A DNA stretch of 64,000 nt, taken from contig MU004234.1 in assembly GCA_010405405.1 (NCBI GenBank), positions 1,143,275 to 1,207,274 of the forward strand. The letters are read 5' to 3'. Origin of the DNA: Microthyrium microscopicum. Lineage: Eukaryota. The notes below the pieces were generated by a model. The model saw only the letters and a list, made by a program, of their open reading frames with translations, was not told the origin of the DNA and did not search any database. The translations under genes and the position numbers were made by a program. This document shows, one piece after another, positions 1-28,618 of this stretch; positions within the stretch are counted from its first letter, which is position 1, and each line of letters begins with the position of its first letter.

Positions 1-1249
1 TACTAGTATTTATATAATATAAAATATCTATACTTATTTTATATACTATGTCTCTATTAGCTATTATACTATAATAGATAAGCCTACTAGATGGAACTAC
101 TATCTTATAGAAATATCTTTAATTATAAATAACTTTTTATTTAATTTACTATTAGTATAATTATAACGTAGAATATTTTTACTATAAAAGGATTAGATCG
201 CTTTACTAACTCCTTTTATAGATTAATTAAATAGAAATAAACTGTCTCTTCTCTCTAGCCTACTATATATTCCTTCAACTTACTATATATCTAATTTAGG
301 AATACTTTATACTCTAAAATAAGAGCTTTATTATCTAGATAATTAGTATTACTACGTTATACGTAAGAAGCTTATTATAATATTAATTTATATATTTCTA
401 TTAGCAAAATAATAAATTTATAATAGGTGCTGCCCTTAACTACTAGCTGGCTACTAGCTATATATAAGATTAACTATTAAGTTAACTATTATCTCTTATA
501 TTAATACTAACCACATTTAATTATTAGCTGGCTTATTGCTTCTTTTGGATTGCTTGCTAAATATTTCGTTAATTTCTAGAAGTTAGTAACGATTATACAA
601 AATATATATTTAGTAGTACTTCTATATAAAGTCTTTTTACTAAATATCTTATTAATGTCTTGATACTAGTAGTAATTTTATAAAATACGCTACTAGTAAT
701 ATGTTTATTAAAAGCTTAATCGTTAAATTCTTTATTAGTTACTAAATATTAGAGGTAACAACGTAAAATATAAAAGTAGTAATACCTTCTATTAGAAGCT
801 ATAGTTTATATACTATATTAACCTTTAAATATTAAGGATAATAATATAGAATCTATACTTAGTATTACTTACTATCTAGAACTATTGCTATAGAGGGTAT
901 CTTATCTAACTAATATTAGTAGTAATTGTATAGAATCTCTTTTTAAGTAATACTTCTTAGTAAAAGAGCCATATTAGTTAAAATTACTTTTAGTAATTGT
1001 TTATAATAACTAGATAGTAGAATTAAAGAGTATAATTTATAAGGCTTATTCTCTACTCTAGTTAATATATTATTTATTTTTATTAAGTTAATAATATCTC
1101 TTATAGTTTAGTAGCTATAGATTATAGAAATCTTAGCTTTCTTTAGATAAAGACATCCTATAGTATATTCTTACGTATAAACTATATATAGTCTTATTAC
1201 TATCTACTTTATATTATTATATAAGATATAGCGCTTTATTAAAGTCTAA

Positions 1250-4100
1250 AACTATATAATTATATTAGACGATAATATAGAGATTTAATATATTTAATAA
1301 TGTTATAATTATAAAGAATAATATTAGAAAAATTTAAGTTTATAAGCTAGTATTATCTTCCTTAGCTATAACTAATAAGTAAGTAAAGCCTTTAAAGTAC
1401 TACTATATAGAATCTTATTAGTTATTACCTTCTACTTATATTATCTTTAGTAACTAAACTAAAGCTAAATCTAGAGCTACTAGATATTAATAGTAGCTAG
1501 AGCTAGTAAATATTATTTAACTATAATTATATCTAATAATTATAACTATATACTTCCTTATAGGTTAAGTATAGCTAGAAGATTAGCTATATTAAAGAAA
1601 GGAGCGTAAAATATTAGTAGTAAGAGGCTAGTATTAATTATTAGAACTAATCTAGGTAGCGCGGTACTATAAACTTATTCTTCGTCTCCTAAGGCAGGTA
1701 GATAAGGAATAACGTCTTTAAAATTATAGTATACGCTATTTTATATATAGTACGTATATTAACTATTTTAATATTTAGGAAAGTTAACGTACCTTATTAT
1801 TACTAGCTAGTTAATTTAGGACTAAGAATAAGGAACTACTACTAGGTAATAGAATAAGTATTAGGTATATTTTTAATTAGCTATATAGTATTTCTTATAA
1901 CTATATAAGACTATAGCTTTAATAAAAATATTAGCAATCTTAGTATTAGACTACTAAAAGATTTAAGAAAATAAGTCTATTATTAGGTATAAGATACTAG
2001 ACTTTCTAATTATATATATACGAAATAGGTTATTACTTTCTATAAGAAAACTATTTAAATAGAGAAGAATTACTTAAAGTTACTATAAGCTTAGGTCTTA
2101 ACTAAAGGTTAGTAAAATAATTCGTAATTAAAAGAATTTATACTTACGTTTATAATCTAGACTAAGACTTAAAAGATATAATAGGTTAAAGGATAGTAGA
2201 AATTAATTTAAGTATACTAGCTATTATTTAGTCTTTAGTAAACTAACTATTTACTTAGATTTTATACTATTACCTATTACTAAGTAGAGAGTAAGCTATT
2301 ATCCTTTAATCTAAGCGTAATATAAATAGCTATTATAGTAGAGAGCTAAAAGGGTAGGCTAATCTAACTAAAAGGACGTTACGTATTAACGTTAGCTTAA
2401 TATTATATACATATAAGTATCTCTTAATGCTTTCTCTCCTAGTCTAATATAAAGATAGCATAATAGTATAATATAAGTACTATAGGAATAAAACTACGCT
2501 AATTAAAATTAGCTTTAGTCTAAGACTTAGACTATACTACGTAGGGAAAGAAGTTCTACTTATAGAACTACTAAATACTCTAAATAATAAGGGGCGCATA
2601 GAAGTAAACCTAGAAATAGAGGCTAGGTATAGTACTAATAATAGACGTAGTTTAAATTATAGGTTAGTTATTAGGGGTATAGTACTTAAAGTTGTTATTA
2701 TAGTTTAGAGTTATGTTAGAATTTAAAGGTTAAGAGGTTCTTAGTAGGTTCTATGCTATTACCTAGGTAGTATAATTAGATAATAACTATAAATTAATAA
2801 TATTAATAGCTTTTCTTCTAAAATTATAAAGACTAAAGACTAATTTATTAGGTAGTTTAGGTAGCTAAAAAAGTATAAATACGCGTAAGTATATATTTAT
2901 AGAGCTAAATAAAAGTGTAAGTTATTAGAACGTAATTATAGGATAGAACTTATAGCTTTCTTATTACTAAATTAATAGATAGCTAAAGACTAAAATAGAA
3001 TTGCTTCTCTTAGCGCAAGTAGTAGAAAGAAGCGCTAGGTAATAGTAAATTATAAAAGATAAGAGATCTTTACTTTAAAGGTTAGTAGATAAGAATTTAT
3101 ATTAATAGTACTAGGTAAATAAGGTTAGTTCTTAAATAGATATAGCATAGTAGAACTTATAGTCTTTTAATATAAGGCTAAATATAAGATATTATTATAG
3201 TATATAGTAGGTAGCATAAGTAATTAAAGTAAATAAAGATAAAGAAGTTCTTACTTTTAAAGGGAGTAAGGAACTCTAATAGAGAGTTAAAGAGTAGTAT
3301 AAAGAAGTAATAAAGGTATAGATAAGTAGAAGGGTTTTATAGATAATAACCTAATTAAATAGTTGCCTGCTTAGTAAGGAATAAGTAAGAGTAATTAACG
3401 TAGCTATAGATTATAATATAACTTAAGCTAAAGTAGTGAATAACTATATAACTATCGTTATATAACGTAATAGTCTTTACTAGTATAATATTCTAAAGAA
3501 ACTTTATAATTAATATACTATAAATAGTAATAATGTCTATAAAAATAGTTATCTTTTTGTAGTAATAGTAGTAAGTATAGGTATTAGTAATATTAAAAGA
3601 GTATATAGAAGCTAGAAACTTATAGTATTAATAGAAGAACATAGACTAGAATAGCTAAAAGTAATAATAGTTAGTAATTATAGCTAGAGCATTAATATTA
3701 GCTATTATAGCAACTAAATATATAGAAAAAGGTAAGAAAATTATAGTTCTAATAGATAGTAATCTTTATAAGAAGAAGTTGCCTTCTACTAATATAAAGT
3801 AAGGTATAGTAAGAGCAAGGGTTTTAGGGAAGATAAGATAATAAATATAAGTATCTAATATAAGTAATAACTTAATAGGTATTAAGGAACTTACTTATCT
3901 AATTTTATAATTTAATATTAATATATAGTAAGTGCGTAGAGCCTATCTAGTAGTCTCTTAGTTAATAGTAATAAGTAGCTAGTAATAAATAGACTAAATT
4001 AGTATTAAAAGTGCTATCTCTATAATAAAAAGACTTAGCTAAAGTCTAGTAAATAAGAATAGTAGTATTAGTATTATAGGGGATGTATAGTAGATATAAT
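1250..4100 (-). pseudogene. RIP-degenerate intron-rich gene relic
   Basis: Minus-strand splice signals survive: GTAAGT...TACTAAC-CTTTAG (2147-2102), GTAAGA...TTTAG (3254-3178), GTAAGTT donor at 3894, GTACGT...AATAG near 1790-1736. Product unknown; limits approximate. Confidence 0.45.
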
Positions 4101-4599
4101 AGTAGCTCTTCTAAAGCTAAACTATTAAGAGTAGGGGCTATATAATTAAAGCTAAGAATACTAGGTTAATTTTCTTAGAATATATTAAAAAATATTAATT
4201 AATAGAAAAGCGTATATTTAATTAATTAGTATTTATAGCTCCTTTTCCTAACTTTATTTTATTAAATTTATATTAACTTTATTAAATCTTTATATTAGTA
4301 CTTTAATCGTATTATATTCTTTAACTTTAAGTATATAATAACTTTCCTAACTATAATAAAGTATAGCTACTTTGCCTCTTAAATTAATTTATATATAGTA
4401 TTAAATACTAATAGTTATAGTTAAATAATTATAATAAGAACAAGAACTAAGTTTATATAATTATAATAGTTTTATTTATTATAATTATATAGGATATAGA
4501 GTTTTACGATTAGGGCCGCCCTAAAACCTATAGCTATTTAGAAGAAGCTAGACTAAGCTCATAGGGCTAGGTTAAACTTTACCTTGTAAAGATAAAGTA

Positions 4600-6000
4600 T
4601 ATTAAGACGTATCTTACGATATTAAGCTATACTAGATATCTATAGTTATTTAGTAAAGTTCTATAAACTTATAAAGCTAGATTAAACTATTAATTACAAA
4701 GAATAAAATATACTTAGGTAGTTACTATTATTATACATAAAGTATATTAAAACGTTATTCTCTACTATACTATATTTATTACTACTTAAGTTAATATACT
4801 AGCTAAACCTCTACTAATAGACAAAATTACTATAAACTCTCTATATTTCTTTAGTAATCTTTCTAACGCCCTCTTTTTCTTAGTTAGTATATTTATAAGT
4901 TTAACTATATTATAACTACTCTTTAGTAGCTCTACTATATAGCATTATGAATATTAGAACCTAGGTTTTTTAAGAATATTTCTTGCCTCTAAAATATATA
5001 CTTAGTATATATAACCTCTAAGCTAGTAATGCTTATAAGCGTTATTACTAGTAAGAGTCTTATTAGCATTTATCTCTTCTATATAACTAATATAAGTCAC
5101 CTTACGCTTTTAGTTAGGTAATATAGCCTTCTACTAGTTAATAGTTACTAACTAGAAATAATCTAGTATAAGAGAGCAACTTAAAATATTGCTACTTTTG
5201 TAAAAATACTAAAGGATTTTCTTAATTAAACTATAAGCCTTAGTAATAGCTATAGCCTTTAAGTTAAAAGATCTAACTAGGCCTAAAGAAGAGGCCTTTA
5301 TAATAGTAACTACTATATAAGCTATAAGTAAGGCTTTTGTAGCTTTAACTTCCTTATTAAAGTTTATATAGGTAGTACTATTATAAGTACTAGTAGAAGA
5401 AATTAGGATAATAGAAGATAGTAAGTTAAGAAGAGATAGTATAATAATATATATAGTAAAGAAGTTTATAGCATAAGAAAAAACTTTATTAAAATATAGT
5501 ATACTAGCTAACTAAAGAGAAGGAAAAAAGAGAGAAGGAGAGCTCTAAGGCGTCTTAATAGAAGAGGTAGTAGAGCTTTCTTAAGAGTAGAGAAAAGAAG
5601 GAGACTAAGAAAGTATAAATAAATTACGATTATTATTATTATTATAATTATTATTATAGACTAGCGTATTATTTTTATTCCTATTCTATATATATAAATT
5701 CTTCTTTTCTATAGTAGGAGGAGCCTTTTTAAAGGTAAGTAAATTCTTCTCTTATAAAGTAGGTAAATTGCTATTAAAATTAGTAGGCAACGCTAAGGAC
5801 TCTTACCTAGAAGAACGTAAGAAAGTAAGTAAAGTAAGGTATTTACGCTTATTTAAAAGCTTAGGCTTAGACGATAATAGTTATTAAATTACGCCTAAAG
5901 GTATAACTACGTAAGAAGACTACTATAGTAATAGTAGTAGTAGTAGAGGAGAGGAGAGAGGAGTAGGTAGATTTAAGAGTAGTAAGCCTTAGACTATTAC
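4600..6000 (-). pseudogene. RIP-degenerate ORF relic with Pro/Ser-rich and acidic N-terminus
   Basis: Minus frame reads LNLPTPLSSPLLLLLL**SS (de-RIP ...SSPPPPPSPQQSS) and NNNYNNNNNR (DDDHDDDDDR, ~5630-5660). It continues ~450 codons with only RIP-type stops. Confidence 0.45.
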
Positions 6001-6589
6001 TTATTCTTCTTAATTATTATTACTATAATATTATTAATATTATTATTTACGATTTAATAGTAAAGGAATATACTTATTAGCGTTAAAAAAAGCGCTTAGG
6101 AAGTCTACGCGCTTATTATAATATAAACGTATTTCTTATTAACGGATCGTTCTAAATTTTATAATAATCGCTACGTAGGCCTTTAAGCTATATATCTTTT
6201 TTTTATCTTTAAAATTATGTTTAAATAAGTTAGTATAAATATATAGTACATTATAGCGTACTAAATATACTAAAGGCTAGTAATATTAAGGTATCTTTAA
6301 AAGTCTAATAGAAAGCTAATATTTATAAAAGGTATATAAAGCTAATATATATATTATTAAAGAGCTTTAAAATATAGAGCAAGGAGAGGTTTTATTATAG
6401 TAATACTCCTATTTAACCTATACTCTTATAGAAATAAAGCCTAGTTAGTTTAGGCTATTATTCCCTATTAAAGCTATCCTTAAGGATAATATCTTATTAT
6501 TCTTTCCTAAAGTATAAAGTTTTAGTAAATTGTATAAAGTTTTATAAAGATATTAGCTAATTATATGCTAGAATATCTTTATAGAAGCC

Positions 6590-8250
6590 TATTTACTATA
6601 GGAGCGTTAATAATATAAGATAGTAGATATTATAAGGTAGCCTAATTATAATAGCTTTATAATAAGATAGATCTCTTAAAGATATAGAAGGTCTATAGGT
6701 TTATTTTATAAGTACTAGAAGCGTTATAAAAATCTAGAGTACTTATTATTAATCTTAGAATTAAATATTATAGAATAAGATTAACTTACTAAAAGCTATA
6801 ATAATACTACTATTATAAGGCGTAGGATAAATAGCTACTATATAGTTTACTTCTAGGTCTTAGAATAGAAGAAGTTTAACTTAGTCTAATGGTACGTAAT
6901 ATAAATTTTAGAAGATAGTCTTTACTATATAAACTAAAGTTATTTAGATTTAGTAACTAAAATCTTACACTATAAGACTAGGATTAAATTTATAAGATTA
7001 GTAACTATATTGTTGCTTATTTATAAGTAAGTTAGTAGGATTTATATAGTGTTATCTATTAAATATTAACTACTTATTAGCTACTTATAAGCCTATGAAG
7101 ATAAGCTATAATAGGCTTAGAATAAGTAGTATTTAAGATAATAGTCTACTTAGGGTTCGTTAGGCAAATATAGATTAACCTAAGGAACTCTCTTAGTATA
7201 AGGCTTAATAAATAAGTAAAAAATATTAGACTAAATACGTATAAATAAGGACTTAATTTCTTAAGCTACTAAGCTACTAAGAAGTAGTAAATATAATTTT
7301 AAATCTAGCGCTATAAACTTAGAAGTAGTAACTAGAGATTTAATATTAGTACTATAAAGATAATAATTAGGCCTAGAGAAGTATAAGAATTAGTCTAAGA
7401 GTTAAACTTAGAAATAGACTTAAATAGCCTTATATATGTACTAACTAAAGGTTACTAAGTAAGTAAAGTAACTTAAAACTATATATAGAAAGGCATATAA
7501 GCAATATAGCATATAATATTAATATTAATATTAAACTTACTAAATATCTCTATAAGGTAAAGCTTTGTAAAGCTTAGATATAGAGTAAAGGTATAAAGAA
7601 GAGATATAAAGAATCTAGAGTAGTAGATATAGTTAAATACCTATTAAGCTTTAGTCTTAACTAGTTTAAGTAGACACTATAGTAGGCTATATTTACTTCT
7701 TATCTTTTAGCTTACTAACTCTCTTTCTATAAGTACTAATATTAACAATATTACTATATAGTAGTTAGTTCCTCCTACGTACTATAAGAATTAAGTTAAG
7801 TAAGTAGTAACTACGCTTAGCCTACTATCTTAAGCTATTACCTTATATAAAAATCTAATCTTTACTTAGACGTAGTAAGATATAATACTAAGAGTAATAT
7901 ACTATAATAAATAGGAGGCTACTAATATTATAGTAAGACCTTTAAAGAGAGAAGTAAATATATCTTCTTATGTGTTTTAAATACTATAGGGTAATGGCGT
8001 TATACTAAGGGATAGCTATACTAGTAGATAGTATATTAACTAAAAGCTTTAATAAGAGAAGTATATAATAACTTATTCTATAATTATACTTTTGCTAAAA
8101 ATATAGCAAGGGTTATTAATATATATAGCTTCTATTAATAGCATAATAATAAAATATAGTCTTGTTATTAGTAAGCCTATAGCTATATACTACTCTATCT
8201 AACTCTACTAGAAATAATATACCTAGATAGTAAAAGTTTAGTATTATTAT
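6590..8250 (+). pseudogene. RIP-degenerate ORF relic of unknown function, convergent with the helicase
   Basis: One + frame is interrupted almost only by TAA/TAG for ~550 codons and de-RIPs to protein-like text. No family recognised; limits approximate. Confidence 0.35.
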
Positions 8251-8419
8251 AATATATTTAAATTTATAAGATAATCTAATTTAATCTTAGAAGATCTTAA
8301 TTAATATTAACTAATTAGAGGGTAGCATTTTACTAATATTAGATATAGAGTAGGTAGCTTACTAAGAGCATAGAACTCTACGTACTAGTATTAAAAGATA
8401 TATTAAGCTAAAGTAATAA

Positions 8420-11400
8420 TTAGTTAGGAAAGGTAGTATTATGCTTCCCCTTTTTTGTAAGAATTAATAAACGCCTAATACGTATTTTCTAAATATAGCT
8501 TAACCTAATAATTCTTTATTAAGCTCTCTTTTCTACTTATTTAATACTAGCAATACTTAGTAACTAGGTAGCTTTTTTATAACTAGGTAGTATACTTAAA
8601 GTATCTTTTACTTACTTACTAGCTTTAGCCTAGGTTAAGCTAATAGGTAACTCTATAAGAGTACTATAATATATAGTTCTACTAGTAAATAGAAATATAG
8701 AACTACTTAGCTTAGAATCCTTAAGAATTATAGTATTAACTATAGCTTATAACGTATAGTAATAAGAAGGCTTAGGAGCTAGAGAAGAGGCTAATAGTCT
8801 TAGAGCTAAACTAGATATTAATACAGTACTAGATATGCTTATTACCTAAGATAGTAAGCCGCTTTAACAATGCTATTTTTTGTCTTATTTACACGCTATA
8901 GCTTTAAAACAAGCCTTAATGTTAGTATAGTTAGCTTCTTACTACTATCTAATAGTCTTATTAGTGTCCTTAGCTAAGTTAATCTTAATTACTTATTAAT
9001 TAGTAGATTAAGATACGCTCTAGCCTCTTATTACCTCTTTTTATTTCTTACGTTCCTACCTCTATTACTTAAGTTTAGTAAACTTTATAGGTACTAGAAT
9101 AGCTAACGCCTTAAGCTTTTTAAGTAGGTCTATACTATAATTATTATATTTATTCTAATTATAAAGAAGAGTTGCTTAACCCTTTAACTAATCTTATTCT
9201 ATTAGGGATAGTAGGTTACTAAGCTTAGTAGTACTAGAGAAAATATAAGCTAACTACTATTAAGTATAATAGCTTAGTACTATAAAAAATAATATACTAT
9301 ACTTAAATATAGTAGAGAGTAGATATAATCTCTATGCTTAGTCTTATACCTAAGCTATAATCTCTTTTAAAGTAAACTAGCTATAACTATTAAGAGCTAG
9401 AGGTTTTAGTTTAGCTAATTTGTCTTTATAAAGAGCAATCTTTAGAAGTAATAGGGCTAGGTTATATCTATTATAGTAAAGTAGTAGATCCTAAGTTAAT
9501 AAAGATAGTATTTAATCTTTACTAAGAAACTTCTAGATTATAATGCGAATATAATTAGCGTTTACTAAATTATAGAACTCTTAGGGTATTTTTACTTATT
9601 ACTTAGTCTTAGGTTTAGAAAAGAACTCTATCTTCTTTAACTTCTTTTACTTTCCTATTATATTCTAGGTTAAAGGTCTAGCCTAAGACGAACTAGCTAT
9701 AGAAGATTCTAGTTTAGTAGATTCTTATTCTATATTAGTAAGGCTATTTTTGCTAATATCTAATATATTGCCTAGTATCTATACTTATAATAGAGAATGC
9801 AATAAAGCTTGCTAGGAAAAAGCCTACTAAGACTAATGTTATTATTATATAGCGTAATGTAATAAAAGTATATAACGCGTAGTAGTCTTCTACTAGCGCG
9901 TTATAGCTATACTAGGCTTAGGTATATTTTAAATAGGTCGTTCTTTTATATATTTATTATATAAGTAATATAGGAGCTAAATTTTAATTATACTATAGTT
10001 ACTTTTACTTTGCGCACTATAACTAGCACGCTACTAGAGATTTAGTATATTATAACTAATTAGTATTTTCTAAATAATAATAAGTATAATACTAGGAATA
10101 TAGTAGCTAAGCCTAAGATAAGTTATTACTACTATAATTTAAATCTTAGAGTTAGGTTTATAGAAAGTAGTATAGTAGTAATTTTAATTATACTTAGATA
10201 ATTAAGACGTATACTTCTTAATAATTTTATTAACGTAAAATATTTTAGCCTTTAGATTATATAAGTACTTCTTAGAGTAACTATTAGGAAGATAAGAAGT
10301 AAGTATAATTAGTAAATAATAAAGGTATATAAGCGTAGTTTAGATACTAAAGATACTATTAATAAAGATAATTATCTTTAGTATCTTAGATAGACTACTA
10401 ACTTTAATCTTATAGTTAGAGTATTTATATATATGCTTATGCTTAAGTTTAGAATATTAGCTAGAACTATTAATATTAATATCTTCTTTGCCTAAATGTT
10501 TGCTATTAGTATTATTCTTATCCTCTATAGAATAAAGATTAGATTTAGGACTTGCTATATCTATACTAGTACTATACCTATTATTAGACTATACGTCTTA
10601 GCGTTAAACTTCTTATTAGCTAGTAGTTACTTTATAGTAATTCTTATTTACTAAGGTAGTAGTTTTATATACTTATTAAAATATATACTATAGAATATTA
10701 TAAAGATTATTAAAAGAAGTAAGCTTACCTTTCTTAATAAAGTGTATAATAATAGAAAGATCTAGATGATTTATACTTATTCTTAATAGAGTAGTTTACC
10801 GCTAATATTAACTTAACTATTAAAAGCTACTAAGCTAAAAAACTATTTCTTGCGTTAGTTAACTTAATATACTAGTATATCTAAACTAGATAACATCCTA
10901 TAGTAATATTGCTCTAAGCTTGCTAATTATAGTAAACTTTATTTAAAAGTTATGCTACTAATAGATAAGGTAATACTTATTAATAGTAATATATCTAATT
11001 CTTTACTAAAACTCTACGTCCTTTAAAAGTTTCTAGAAGTCTAGGAATAACACTAGCTCTAGTAATAAGAGAATATAACTAAAGTCTCTTCTTCTTATCT
11101 TACGAGTAAGATATTAAATCTTCTCTTTAGAATCTTTTATTAATAGATAAAGAGTATATTCTTCTACGTTCTTAATACTATTATACTAGTCTTTCTTAAG
11201 TCTATTAAGAAGAATAATTTAGAGTATAATCTTACTAGTTAGAGCACTATAGGTGTATAGGATTAGGCTTTTGCTAAACCTAGTTTTAGCTATTAAAAGT
11301 ATATTCCTACTACTATAGATTAATATATAAAGGGCTTAAATCTAGGCTTCTTTTAGCTTAATATTTAGATAGAATTATTTTAAAGCACTTCTTAATACGC

Positions 11401-11671
11401 TAGGCTATTTCTCTAAATAACTTTCACTCTAAGTTAAAATATTAATTATCTTATAGATAGTTTCTAGTTTTATCCTAAGTATTCTCCTAGTACGTTTATT
11501 AAGTTCTTCTAGCTCTATCTCATCTAGGTCGTATAGTAATAAAGGGTACTATATCTCTTAGCTTTTATAATAATTAGGAAAATATTCTCTATTATTAGTT
11601 TACCTATTTATAAGCTTTCTTTTAAAGCCTAGAGGCGCTTTTAGTATTCTTTTTATCTTTATAGATAGCAT
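8420..11671 (-). pseudogene. RIP-inactivated RecQ-family (SF2 DExH) helicase
   Basis: One frame from ATG 11671 reads ILLIAKTRFSKSLIL (de-RIP AKTGFGKS, Walker A, ~11267-11290); YITINKYYLIY**HNF (IAIDECHLIHQW-HDF, DECH 10970-10981); FRYTSIL (FGCTGTL); IIVVITYLRLS (IMVATTCLGLG); **RASYSAQ (WQRAGRGAR, ~10010-10036); then a C-x-R...CCDRC-like Zn motif. The 3' end is approximate. Confidence 0.88.
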
Positions 11672-11762
11672 TACTAACTTAGTTAAAAAAGTTTTAACCT
11701 AGAATATATAATAAGTATAATAGATTAGTAGTAAGGTATAGATAGAATAATTAAATATTACT

Positions 11763-11820
11763 ATAGATCTTCTAATATCTTAATAGATCTTCTAACATCT
11801 TAATAGATCTTCTAATATTA
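11763..11820. repeat. 20-bp tandem repeat, ~3 copies (ATAGATCTTCTAAYATCTTA)
   Basis: Units at 11763, 11783 and 11803, about 90 bp upstream of the helicase relic ATG. Confidence 0.9.
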
Positions 11821-12830
11821 TCTAGATCTTATAAGAAGTAGCAACTTTATTAGGCTTATTAAAGATTTTACTAACGTCTTATAGACCTTAATTAATATAT
11901 AGTACTAGAAGACTCTTAATATCTATTAAGTACTACTCTTTAATAGTTTATATATATATCCTATAATAAGGAAATAATTAACTAGGTAGGTAATAATATA
12001 GTAATTAGTAGAATAAAAATGGAGTATATACTACTACTAATAATAATAACCTAAAAATAACGTACTAGATTAAAATAGATAATAGTTTTAAGTATATTTA
12101 TATATATAAAATTATATATATTGTAGTAGTTATTTAGTAGTTAATAGTTAAAGGTGCGCTTACTAAAATATAAATACGTTAGACGTTTTTAGGTATATTA
12201 AGAGGAATAGTTAAATATTATAGTTTCGTATTAATCCTAAATAAAAATAGATTTATTAGAAAGCTAATTTCTAACTATAGGAATTAAATAGTACTGAATT
12301 TAAGCTATAGGGCTATAATTATGATAGTGTTAAGTTATTTATAAAAATAGTAAAATTGTAAAGTGAGTTGCTATAAAATTTTCCAAGTTGTCCTTAGACG
12401 CGACTATGTCGTAGCTAGCGGAGACTTGGCGCGATCTGATTGGCTGAGATAAGCAACTTCAGCAAGAGCGACCGGGGCGAACATTCTGGCCAATATCATG
12501 TCGGTCTAAACGGCAAGAGCTACCTAGGTAAGGATAGCAGGCACGATATTGAACAAAGGAAGCTACGACCGAGCCTCGAAGAAGGTGCGACCCACGACCC
12601 AACTATTGACCAAGTGACCTCTACCCGGTACTATAACAGTTCGTCTACCCAGCTTTTTTGCATTCCTCCACCTCGAGTTTCCTAGCAACAACTACTTTTC
12701 ACATATTTGCCTCTGTTGTTTAGCTATCGTCGTTTCATCGGCACTGAAATAGCTGGCTTCCCCCTCTTCTGTCAACACTTCCCTCCTCATCACCTTTGTG
12801 CTCTGGTTCCCTCATCCGCTTTAATTCACC

Positions 12831-25916: not shown

Positions 25917-28618
25917 GTTATAAATACTATATATTTCAATAATAATTACCTAATAAATAATTCTTAAAATAATAGTGCTATTAGATTTATTACTTTTCTA
26001 TATCTTATAAAATTTTTACGCGCTTTTAATAAGAATTATAATATTAGCTATATAGAACAATACTAATTTAGGATATATCTTAAGATAGTTTTTTTAGCTA
26101 GGTTATAGCTAATTTTACTATAATAGATATTTTTTAAATCTAAAAAAGGAAGCATAAATAGTAAGTAATAAATTATATATAGTATTAGTTTAATAAATAT
26201 TTATTATATTTTAAATAATTAATATTAAGTTAAAATTACTTAGGTTAAAAGATATTATTATTATGCTTTACTAAGATTTTACGTTTATAGGCTAAATTTA
26301 TAACTATAATGCGTCCTAGCTCTTTATATTAGAAAGATAAATTACTAAATCTACTACTACTTTTATAATACTAAACTAAAAATAATTTTATAATAAAGCT
26401 TATATATTAGTAAGAAGAGATACTTCTAGAGAGTATAATTTTATACTTATCTACTAATCTAAAGATACTTTACTATACTATAGAAAGAATATTTAAACTA
26501 CTTAAAAAAGATTAAATTTAATACTAATTCCTTAATCTCTAAGGCTCTAAATTAAAGCGTACTATAAATAACTAAAGGCTAAATAATATTTAAGATAAAG
26601 CACTATATAATTACTTTCTTAAACTCTCTAAAATTAGTATTCCTCTATAATTTAAATACTTTTAAGATACTACTAATAATATTCTTTACTATAGTATATT
26701 ACTAAATACTTTAAATCCTTTTTCTATAGGCTAAAAGTAGCCTAGACGCTTTATAAAACTATACTTATAGTTTAAGATTATAAAGTAAGAATCTTTTAAG
26801 GTTACTTATTAAAAGGCTATAAACTATAGTAATATTAAAGCTTTTATATAGAAATATAAATAGACTATTAATTAATATAAAATATAGCTTATAGATACTT
26901 AGAATATAAATAAAATAGGTATTAAAATAGGTATTAGTAAAGATTAGTAGGTAATAGTTCCTATAGGTAAAGAATATAGTTATTTTAACTACTATATTTA
27001 GAGCTTTAGAGAGAAGAAGAATATTACTATTATAGAGAGCGTATTTATAGTTAAATATATAATTAGTCTTATAATTATTACTAAAGGCTAGATAATCTAA
27101 GAGTAGTAGTTTTATAAAGTTAAAGATAAAAATCTAGCTATTAGTAAGAAGCTTTTTTATTTATATTAATAACTTACTAATTTTATACTATAAAAATATT
27201 AAAATTAGGTTATTTAAATAATATTCTTAGATTCTTATAGATATAATATTTTAATTAATTATTAGCTTAAACTTAGTAAGGAGAGTATAGATTACTACTC
27301 CTTAATAGCTATAAGAGCTATTTAATATATTTCTTTACCCTCTTTTATAACGCGCGTAAGATTATAATTCTTTAACTACTACTATATACTATATACTTCT
27401 TATAATCTCTAAATATTATAATCTTTTAGTAATAAAAGCATTTTTATACTAAATACCTTAATAAAGCTCTATAAGCTAGATTAAGTAAATTTAATAAGTA
27501 AACCTTCTTTATTACTATTAAATCTATAAGACGTAAAGTTATAAAGCTAAATTCTATTAAATCTAGCTTTAAGTATTATAGTTTTTAGCCTTTTAAACTA
27601 TTAGAGATACTATAATATTTACTTATAGATCTACTAAATCTTTATATTTTATAAGACTAGAATAATATTAAAGAAAGTAAAGATAAAGAGAAATTATCTA
27701 CTAAATAGCATACTCTTTTAAATCTATAAAAACTTTATTAGTAATTATCTTAAGTACTTAACTACCTAAGATCCTCTCCTATACTACTAAATATACTAAT
27801 ATATATATACTAAAGATTAAACTTCTAAGCTCTATAGTAAAGAATCCTTATATAGAATAATCTTTATTTAATCTTCTTAGAGTTTTATTATAACTCTTAT
27901 CTTACCTATATATATTAGAATAGATGTAACTAAGCTTAGGTTAACTTTGTTTAATAGAGAAGTATAGTTTATACTAATAATATTTCTTCTTTTTATAATA
28001 TTAATACTTTAGAGCCTATTTTAGTTAAATAATAGGCTTAGAATAATAATCTATATTAAAAAATATAGAGATTACTACTATATTACTTAGTAATTCTATA
28101 GCTACTTTAAATAATACTTAGTAAGTACTTATAACTTACCTATAAAGTAAACTAGCTTTAAAATAAAGCTAAATGTAAAGAAATTAATAAGTTAAAGTAG
28201 TATAATACTATAATTAAGAACTAGAAGTAAGAAGTTAAAGAGGTTACTTATGCATATATACTTCTATAAGTAGTAGAATATATAAGTCTATAGTTATAAT
28301 TTAGAATAGATATAAATATACTTCTTACTAATTTATAAGCTATATTTAATAAGAATATAGATTAAGAGATAATATACTATATACTACTATATTTTTATTT
28401 TAGACTAGATAATAATAAGTTATAAGAGTAAATTTAAAGAATTACTACCTTAGAATTAATCTTAATCTTAATTTTATTACTATATTATAAATTTCTTAAA
28501 CCTTAATATTTTTCTTTTAAAATAAAATATATAATAGATATAATACGTTTTAAATACCTTCTAAATTTTTATTAAATAATATTACGTAGTTATTAGATAG
28601 CTATAGTGTAGATAAAAT

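What the first reader, a model, noticed from the sequence alone, without database searches (positions are those of the whole stretch)
1250..8250. Several non-transposase cargo-like genes fossilised in the same RIP block
Seen: behind the helicase lie a ~550-codon + relic (6590-8250) and a divergent Pro/Asp-rich relic (6000-4600), separated by a CpG-retaining promoter-like spacer (~6060-6190). A further intron-rich relic follows (4100-1250). I found no RT, integrase, DDE or tyrosine-recombinase motifs in them. Inference: the repeated unit carries host-like cargo genes, which would be unusual for an AcademH-type element and could mark a non-Starship gene-carrying giant transposon.
Basis: partly seen in the sequence, partly recalled or inferred. 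Interest (0 to 1): 0.7.

Follow-up and report, generated by a model that had tools for sequence, protein, structure and literature searches.

The report
30-kb helicase transposon with cysteine genes
The mutated block is part of a dead copy of an unusually long fungal jumping gene whose extra genes are not captured host genes but small cysteine-rich proteins of a type that fungal transposons carry, one of them conserved between the transposase and the helicase in many related elements.

Summary
Window 1-12452 is the right 40% of a 29.8-kb RIP-killed DNA transposon: DUF6589 transposase, RecQ-like helicase, 9-bp TIR, 8-bp TSD. Eight copies have both ends. One copy (G000:C6) escaped RIP, so the genes were read directly. 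Two of the three claimed relics are real genes. orfB (2630-1540, 346 aa, intron seen spliced) is DUF3716-like. orfC (6294-4786, 485 aa, intron predicted) is Pro/acidic-rich with a six-cysteine domain. The '550-codon + relic' (6590-8250) has no reading frame even in the intact copy. The 'promoter-like CpG spacer' is exon 1 of orfC. Both genes are collinear with the helicase in 9 of 9 long copies. An orfC homologue lies between transposase and helicase in 8 of 12 metagenome relatives that hold both genes. So these are transposon accessory genes, not host cargo, and the element is not a Starship. It works like AcademH but differs in TSD (8 bp against a reported 9-10), size and accessory genes. 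Earlier scan notes (unchecked) describe oversized relatives in this genome, 8-bp TSDs and six-cysteine transposon genes in other genomes. Verdict: new variant of a known kind.

The parts
1..12452 (.). Right 40% of a 29,804-bp RIP-killed DUF6589 + RecQ-helicase DNA transposon; the left end lies 17,351 bp upstream of window base 1 (G000:C5:1125923)
   Evidence: Collinear BLAST to 8 other long copies; ends and TSDs; length
1540..2630 (-). orfB relic: two-exon gene for a 346-aa DUF3716-like six-cysteine protein; exon 1 2630-2148, intron 2147-2098, exon 2 2097-1540. Broken here by 25 + 17 in-frame stops
   Evidence: Splice joint in run X1 contigs laid on the intact copy; spliced frame; identical 346-aa database protein P0006 = KAF2669321.1; Pfam DUF3716 E 0.0034, under the cut-off; stops
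2856..4073 (-). Stretch upstream of orfB with one spliced minus-strand intron (about 3160-3111) but no ORF over 83 aa: long 5' leader or non-coding transcript, not a gene relic
   Evidence: Joint and contig piece; translation; best spliced ORF 83 aa, 20 of 40 shuffles as long
4786..6294 (-). orfC relic: predicted two-exon gene for a 485-aa protein, low-complexity Pro/Ser/Asp-rich N-part plus a conserved C-terminal six-cysteine domain; exon 1 6294-6074, intron 6073-6023 (predicted, not seen spliced), exon 2 6022-4786. Broken here by 23 stops in exon 2
   Evidence: stops; homologues in 14 of 23 related loci; six invariant Cys
6060..6190 (-).
6590..8250 (.). Non-coding spacer between the helicase stop and the orfC start (carried in all long copies); not a 550-codon gene
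   Evidence: no match outside element copies or in 23 related loci
8420..11671 (-). RecQ-like SF2 helicase relic (1,083 aa in the intact copy)
   Evidence: (DEAD E 1.6e-12, Helicase_C E 1.1e-7)
12444..12452 (.). Right terminal inverted repeat (CTGAGATAA; the left end reads TTATCTCAG)
12453..12460 (.). 8-bp target-site duplication GCAACTTC, identical at the left end

Best explanation
This is one dead copy of a ~30-kb cut-and-paste DNA transposon of the AcademH type. A DUF6589 transposase at the left end and a RecQ-like helicase at the right end point inward between short TIRs, and insertion duplicates 8 bp of target. Between them lie three minus-strand genes for six-cysteine proteins: orfD (upstream of the window), orfB and orfC. 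They are the element's own accessory genes, not captured host enzymes. orfC is an old companion of this transposase-helicase lineage; orfB and orfD are DUF3716-type genes gained by this family. SHOWN: ends, TSDs, co-travel in all long copies, intact frames in the un-RIP'd copy, orfB splicing, orfC homologues in relatives, RIP as the cause of decay. INFERRED: the six-Cys domains bind zinc like a fungal Zn2Cys6 cluster and bind DNA; orfC, with its acidic/Pro-rich tail, most likely regulates the element's own transcription or helps assemble the transpososome on internal repeat arrays (about 55% for a DNA-binding regulatory role); the helicase aids excision or repair; DUF6589 is the DDE enzyme.
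For: 8 copies have both ends with 8-bp TSDs, 6 exact and 2 with one C/T mismatch. orfB-orfC-helicase are collinear in 9 of 9 long copies. The intact copy has open frames for all genes, and the public annotation numbers orfD, orfB and the helicase KAF2669320, -21 and -23, leaving room for one gene between orfB and the helicase. tblastn with the intact orfC exon 2 alone hits 9 of 23 related metagenome loci (E 1e-5 to 2e-17); with its paralogue and a profile, 14 of 23, of which 7 were in the training alignment. Of 12 loci holding both transposase and helicase, 8 have it between them on the helicase strand. The domain has six invariant Cys spaced CxxC-x6-C...CxxC...C. Atlas first hits are DUF3716 clusters: 0.90 for the orfC domain (a cluster where 28% carry DUF3716) and 0.83 for orfB, a lead only. 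The orfD domain passes the DUF3716 cut-off in the six-frame search, 22.3 bits. DUF3716 genes sit on the REP9 transposon (PMC8232023, passages and section 14). In the transposase model the only long alignments among 50 rows are Hermes (Z 5.5, rmsd 8.0, 272 aligned) and P element transposase (Z 5.5, rmsd 5.4, 280 aligned), weak support.
Against: Pfam DUF3716 hits on the whole proteins are under the cut-off (17.7-18.8 bits against 22), and orfC itself has none. The orfC intron was not among the four joints seen; the contig crosses it unspliced. 4 of the 12 relatives with both genes lack orfC (L124, L131, L134, L136), so it is dispensable. Two intact orfC paralogues lie in GC-normal DNA on C3, so a host origin is not excluded. 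orfB and orfD have no match in the 23 relatives. The TSD is 8 bp, not the 9-10 bp reported for AcademH (PMC10045372, passage). The defining AcademH paper could not be read. No DNA binding or transposition was tested.
Confidence: 0.8

Rival explanations
1. The element captured real host genes: orfC or orfB came from chromosomal genes and give the fungus a function, as Starship cargo does.
For: Intact orfC paralogues at G000:C3:724622-726457 and C3:2491402-2492565 lie in non-RIP DNA. The transposase-helicase gap is 22.3 kb against 2.4-6.2 kb in six relatives. A DUF3716 transposon gene changes a host phenotype in Zymoseptoria (PMC8232023, section 14).
Against: No internal ORF hits an enzyme, transporter or other host family. 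orfC homologues are element-linked in many relatives. The C3 paralogues are only 29-36% identical over the Cys domain. The 10.9-kb middle gave no spliced ORF over 144 aa and those found are mostly tandem-repeat frames.
Confidence: 0.12
2. The relics are separate nested transposons or debris inside an ordinary AcademH copy.
For: DUF3716 genes occur on other elements (PMC8232023). Several copies do carry private insertions, for example about 870 bp at window 3511 in the C14 copy.
Against: The same internal sequence is collinear in all long copies and was not found elsewhere in the genome. No internal transposase or RT. Non-RIP differences are only 3-24 transversions per 7.4 kb.
Confidence: 0.05
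3. The block is cargo of a Starship or a subtelomeric RecQ (telomere-linked helicase) repeat.
For: RecQ-like helicase repeats under RIP are known at fungal subtelomeres (X26, PMC3017866, passages).
Against: The unit ends exactly at TIRs with its own TSD at eight unrelated, mostly interstitial sites flanked by ordinary GC-normal DNA. The first gene inside the left end is DUF6589.
Confidence: 0.03

Closest known systems
AcademH lineage of Academ DNA transposons (Kojima 2020, Mob DNA 11:15; paper not held, known through passages of PMC10045372 and PMC10799480 and from recall)
   Same: Putative DDE transposase plus DEAD/Helicase_C helicase between terminal inverted repeats; low-copy; found in Ascomycota.
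   Different: TSD 8 bp against a reported 9-10 bp; 30 kb against about 7-12 kb gene spans in the relatives fetched here; three six-cysteine accessory genes, which the passages I saw do not mention.
REP9 / Styx of Zymoseptoria (PMC8232023 passages and section 14; PMC10853768 passages)
   Same: A fungal TIR transposon with extra genes; two of its four genes carry DUF3716; many copies are RIP-damaged.
   Different: IS3EU-like transposase, 7.9 kb, 6-bp TSD, 43-bp TIR, no helicase.
KolobokH (PMC9587614, passages)
   Same: Fungal DDE transposon with a RecQ helicase.
   Different: There the helicase is described downstream of the transposase domain; here it is a separate convergent gene. The 8-bp TSDs vary in sequence, whereas Kolobok duplicates TTAA (recalled).
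Starships (recalled; no paper read)
   Same: Large fungal mobile element with several genes.
   Different: No DUF3435 captain at the 5' end; TIR plus 8-bp TSD; no metabolic or host-interaction cargo found.

Membership tests
AcademH | Encodes a superfamily-2 (RecQ-like) helicase besides the transposase | tested here: met
   DEAD and Helicase_C hits on the 1,083-aa ORF of the intact copy
AcademH | TSD of 9 or 10 bp (PMC10045372, passage) | tested here: not met
   8 bp in 8 of 8 two-ended copies (2 with one C/T mismatch), in three short non-autonomous elements and in two large elements of a second family
AcademH | Transposase clusters with Academ transposases in a phylogeny or matches an Academ profile | not testable with these tools
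   No Repbase or Academ profile held; the link DUF6589 = Academ transposase is recalled
AcademH | RNase H-like DDE catalytic fold | tested here: inconclusive
   Model pLDDT 56; invariant acidic residues in YDN, GDQL and LEH motifs in 12 of 12 sequences; Hermes and P transposases at Z 5.5 only
AcademH | Terminal inverted repeats | tested here: met
   9-bp TIR in the window family; the same first nine bases at ends of relatives L124, L126, L135
Starship | DUF3435 tyrosine recombinase as first gene inside the 5' end | tested here: not met
   First gene is DUF6589, last gene is the helicase
Starship | Element lies inside a larger DUF3435-headed unit | tested here: inconclusive
   Genome search with PF11917 rang nowhere, controls included; but each copy has its own TSD and unrelated flanks
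KolobokH | TTAA target duplication (recalled) | tested here: not met
   Eight different 8-bp TSDs
DUF3716 (PF12511) for orfB and orfC | Score over the Pfam gathering cut-off of 22 bits | tested here: not met
   orfB 17.7 bits; orfC no hit; 3 of 10 orfC-family members hit weakly, best E 0.005; orfD 18.8 as a protein, 22.3 in the six-frame search
Zn2Cys6 binuclear cluster (PF00172) for orfC | CxxC-x6-C ... CxxC ... C spacing and Gal4-like fold | tested here: inconclusive
   Six invariant Cys with a longer third loop; 2 of 10 members hit Zn_clus at E 0.028; Pho7 and Gal4 appear only at E 4-9 in Foldseek

The most novel reading that the evidence does not exclude
This DUF6589-helicase lineage is a second, Starship-independent class of size-unconstrained fungal transposons that collects zinc-cluster regulators (a conserved orfC plus lineage-specific DUF3716 genes) which bind its own repeat arrays or host promoters and help copies stay expressed or escape silencing; the intact copy is still moving.
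Probability: 0.15. Interest if true: 0.75.

Novelty: new variant of a known kind. Interest (0 to 1): 0.45.

Why it matters
It gives an intact, probably recently mobile 30-kb member of a poorly studied transposon group, with exact ends and its RIP-killed sisters in one genome. It shows a recurring third gene (orfC) between transposase and helicase in related fungal elements, which my searches did not find described ('AcademH' 8 papers, 'DUF6589' 1, 'DUF3716' 2, listings; the defining paper was not held, and most subscription journals are not searched). That makes the role of DUF3716-type proteins on fungal transposons testable. It does not show capture of host genes.

Tried and rejected
Permissive blastn among RIP'd blocks gave only ~58% compositional noise. 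The first own-genome DNA search missed the long copies because only the best candidates are scored; searches with the upstream part found them. A gene at 6590-8250 was rejected by stop counts, shuffles, spliced-ORF search and lack of homologues. CpG protection of a promoter was rejected: pooled retention in the other seven copies is 21 of 119 against 400 of 2,761 region-wide (my sums). Homologue search with the whole orfC exon 2 returned nothing among 8,000 scored candidates, probably because of low-complexity words. Fold searches with the orfC domain model (pLDDT 77) gave no match at Z>=2 or E<=0.001, and a profile search of PDB sequences gave only chance hits; this shows neither a new fold nor a different one. 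Foldseek with the transposase model gave nothing under E 0.001. No relative in viral contigs. No RNA holder on record was listed; the one run, X1, is a guessed RNA run kept as contigs and may come from the same source as the assembly. The orfC profile did not detect orfC in the more divergent RIP'd elements fetched, but it also scored only 8-27 bits on four and missed the others of the known RIP'd copies, so that blank says nothing. TSDs could not be established for metagenome relatives: L135 has 189-nt TIRs but unmatched flanks. The PF11917 search was uninformative. Supplements of the cited papers were not opened; those of the AcademH paper (family tables, TSDs, extra ORFs) may bear on the novelty claims.
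Full report
The block. Window 1 to about 12,400 has GC 0.22-0.28 and a composite RIP index of 1.1-2.0, against GC 0.42-0.54 and negative values in the genes beyond. The window is G000:C5:1143275-1207274 of a 37-Mb fungal assembly. The AT-rich block continues about 17 kb upstream. Searches with the upstream part found long copies on C2 (four), C11, C13, C14 and C6, which I fetched.

One element with exact ends. All these copies align collinearly with the block from window position -17351 to 12452; C11 was aligned only from -4218, and two C2 copies are interrupted by large insertions. Eight copies have both ends. They begin TTATCTCAG and end CTGAGATAA (single RIP-type changes in two), and are flanked by 8-bp duplications that differ from site to site: six exact, two with one C/T mismatch. 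The window copy is 29,804 bp with TSD GCAACTTC. The C6 copy has GC about 47%. Over window 1250-8250 it differs from the window by 1,840 RIP-type transitions, 8 reverse transitions and 12 transversions. Across 7.4 kb the eight RIP'd copies show only 3-24 transversions against it. It therefore stands in for the pre-RIP sequence, and no deRIP guess was needed. It is a close sister rather than the literal parent, since 38 sites differ in non-RIP ways in two or more copies.

Terminal genes. The left end encodes a 1,062-aa DUF6589 protein (E 8e-62). The right end encodes, on the minus strand, a 1,083-aa DEAD/Helicase_C protein whose relatives are labelled RecQ-like. Database records identical to these proteins are labelled Microthyrium microscopicum. 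A model of the transposase is mediocre (pLDDT 56). Among the 50 rows of the wide fold search the only alignments over about 100 residues are Hermes and P-element transposases, both Z 5.5, weak support for a DDE enzyme.

Claim 1, a 550-codon + relic at 6590-8250: not there. In the intact copy every frame has 17-29 stops in 554 codons, like shuffles (28 +/- 5). Correcting the 38 shared sites does not open a frame. A spliced-ORF search finds 117 aa at best, 11 of 40 shuffles doing as well, while recovering both real genes with 0 of 40. The stretch matches only element copies in the genome (11 matches) and nothing in 23 related loci. A contig of run X1 crosses it without a joint. The annotation numbers leave one gene between orfB and the helicase (KAF2669321 and -23), which orfC fills; that is an inference from numbering.

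Claim 2, the Pro/Asp-rich relic and the CpG spacer. The intact copy has a 415-codon minus-strand frame at 6033-4786. A canonical 51-nt intron at 6073-6023 joins it to an exon starting at 6294, giving 485 aa. This intron was not among the four joints in X1, so it is predicted only. The 'spacer' 6060-6190 is the Arg-rich end of exon 1. It keeps 9 of 17 CpG in this copy against 70 of 399 over the region, but 0-6 of 17 in the other seven copies, so there is no shared protection. The C-terminal 110 residues form a conserved domain with six invariant cysteines.

Claim 3, the intron-rich relic at 4100-1250. The gene is shorter: two exons at 2630-2148 and 2097-1540, 346 aa. Its intron is seen as a joint with canonical ends, and the identical protein is in the database. 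Upstream, 2856-4073 is covered by a contig with one minus-strand intron but no ORF over 83 aa. Two further joints have plus-strand GT..AG ends (window 167/222 and 2801/2856), hinting at antisense transcripts. X1 is a single run, its RNA nature is a guess supported by these joints, and contigs show neither strand nor level.

What the genes are. orfB and the upstream orfD (554 aa, window -1346 to -3007 by the map) hit DUF3716 just under the cut-off; orfD passes it in the six-frame search. The Atlas puts both orfB and the orfC domain nearest DUF3716 clusters (0.83 and 0.90; leads). All three share CxxC...CxxC...C. No internal ORF hit an enzyme or other host family. DUF3716 is known from REP9-1 and REP9-2 on the REP9/Styx transposon of Zymoseptoria, where REP9-1 expression lowers pycnidia number (PMC8232023, passages and section 14); a later paper describes two Styx genes as putative DNA-binding (PMC10853768, passages). 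orfB has almost no sequence relatives: itself and one 86-aa fragment among 1.84 billion representatives.

Do they travel with the helicase? In this genome, yes: 9 of 9 long copies. Elsewhere, a transposase scan of metagenome contigs gave 23 loci. orfC exon 2 alone hits 9 of them; its paralogue and a profile raise this to 14, of which 7 were in the training alignment and several are near-duplicates (about 10 distinct elements). In 13 of the 14 it lies opposite to the transposase. Of the 12 loci that hold both transposase and helicase, 8 have it between them and 4 lack it. orfB and orfD have no match in any. The transposase-helicase gap is 2.4-6.2 kb in six relatives and 22.3 kb here. The extra length is largely non-coding, with arrays of 80-98-bp repeats and no spliced ORF over 144 aa in the 10.9-kb middle, although the annotation numbers three models there (KAF2669317-19, inferred) that I could not retrieve.

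Mechanism. Shown: a TIR element that inserted at least eight times with 8-bp duplications, carried its whole interior each time, and was inactivated by RIP except for one copy. Inferred: the transposase cuts and pastes, the helicase assists, and the six-Cys proteins bind zinc and DNA. orfC looks like a Zn2Cys6-type domain with an acidic, proline-rich tail, so a regulator of the element's own genes or ends is my best guess (about 55%). Short repeat arrays sit beside the genes in the relatives and in the transposase intron and before the helicase here; they are candidate sites. Fold searches did not confirm the Gal4-like fold.

Comparison. It works like AcademH (helicase plus transposase, low copy, Ascomycota; PMC10799480 passages), but the reported TSD is 9-10 bp (PMC10045372 passage) and here it is 8, so I do not file it as a plain member. 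The defining paper was not held. It is not a Starship, a KolobokH or a subtelomeric RecQ repeat (membership table). Earlier notes of this scan, unchecked AI notes, report the intact copy, other oversized elements in this genome, 8-bp TSDs and six-cysteine transposon genes elsewhere. I had found the intact copy and the TSD before reading them, and I confirmed two large elements of a second family with 8-bp TSDs, 28.1 kb on C9 and 49.5 kb on C3.

Verdict. Observation partly confirmed, interpretation partly supported. A 30-kb AcademH-like element with its own six-cysteine accessory genes, one conserved across relatives; no evidence of host-gene cargo. New variant of a known kind, interest 0.45.

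Noticed in passing
G000:C6:1228614-1228821 and C11:684537-684631 (L079, L099): The intact copy has two left ends separated by an assembly gap. The outer one carries the TSD that matches the right end; the inner one is flanked by 95 bp identical to an empty site on C11. This suggests a second intact copy collapsed in assembly or a new insertion in part of the culture; an assembly artefact is not excluded.
   Followed up: partly
G000:C1:118220-118943, C10:741801-about 742525, C8:1943169-1943887: Short (~720 bp) non-autonomous elements with the same terminal sequence and 8-bp TSDs.
   Followed up: partly
G000:C9:381805-409910 and C3:1783799-1833282: RIP'd elements of a second, divergent family with transposase and helicase relics at the ends, 28.1 and 49.5 kb, 8-bp TSDs (one mismatch on C9); interiors not read.
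   Followed up: partly
L107:2622-4457 (C3:724622-726457) and L108:2402-3565 (C3:2491402-2492565): Intact orfC-domain genes in GC-normal DNA, apparently outside any RIP'd element; domesticated copies or the host source.
   Followed up: partly
window 167-222 and 2801-2856 (L081:1494-1549, 4128-4183): Splice joints with plus-strand GT..AG ends in a region whose genes are on the minus strand: possible antisense transcripts over orfB.
   Followed up: no
window 1250-8250: Mutation rate by original context: CpA 95%, CpG 79%, CpC 22%, CpT 10%; CpG loss is high, though contexts shift as RIP proceeds.
   Followed up: no
G000:C6:1236775-1241740 and 1245447-1245793: Arrays of 80-98-bp tandem repeats inside the element whose unit numbers differ between copies.
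   Followed up: no
L120, L121, L125, L129, L130, L135: Arrays of 9-10-bp repeats ending in a CCAAT-like word, in inverted orientation beside the genes of related elements.
   Followed up: no
L121:4453-5785: A related element carries a further Cys-rich frame and other ORF scraps besides orfC.
   Followed up: no
window about 26000-28500: A second, short RIP-mutated block (GC 0.19-0.20), not examined.
   Followed up: no
G000:C14:115053-115178: A stronger DUF3716 match (44 bits, one stop) outside this element family.
   Followed up: no
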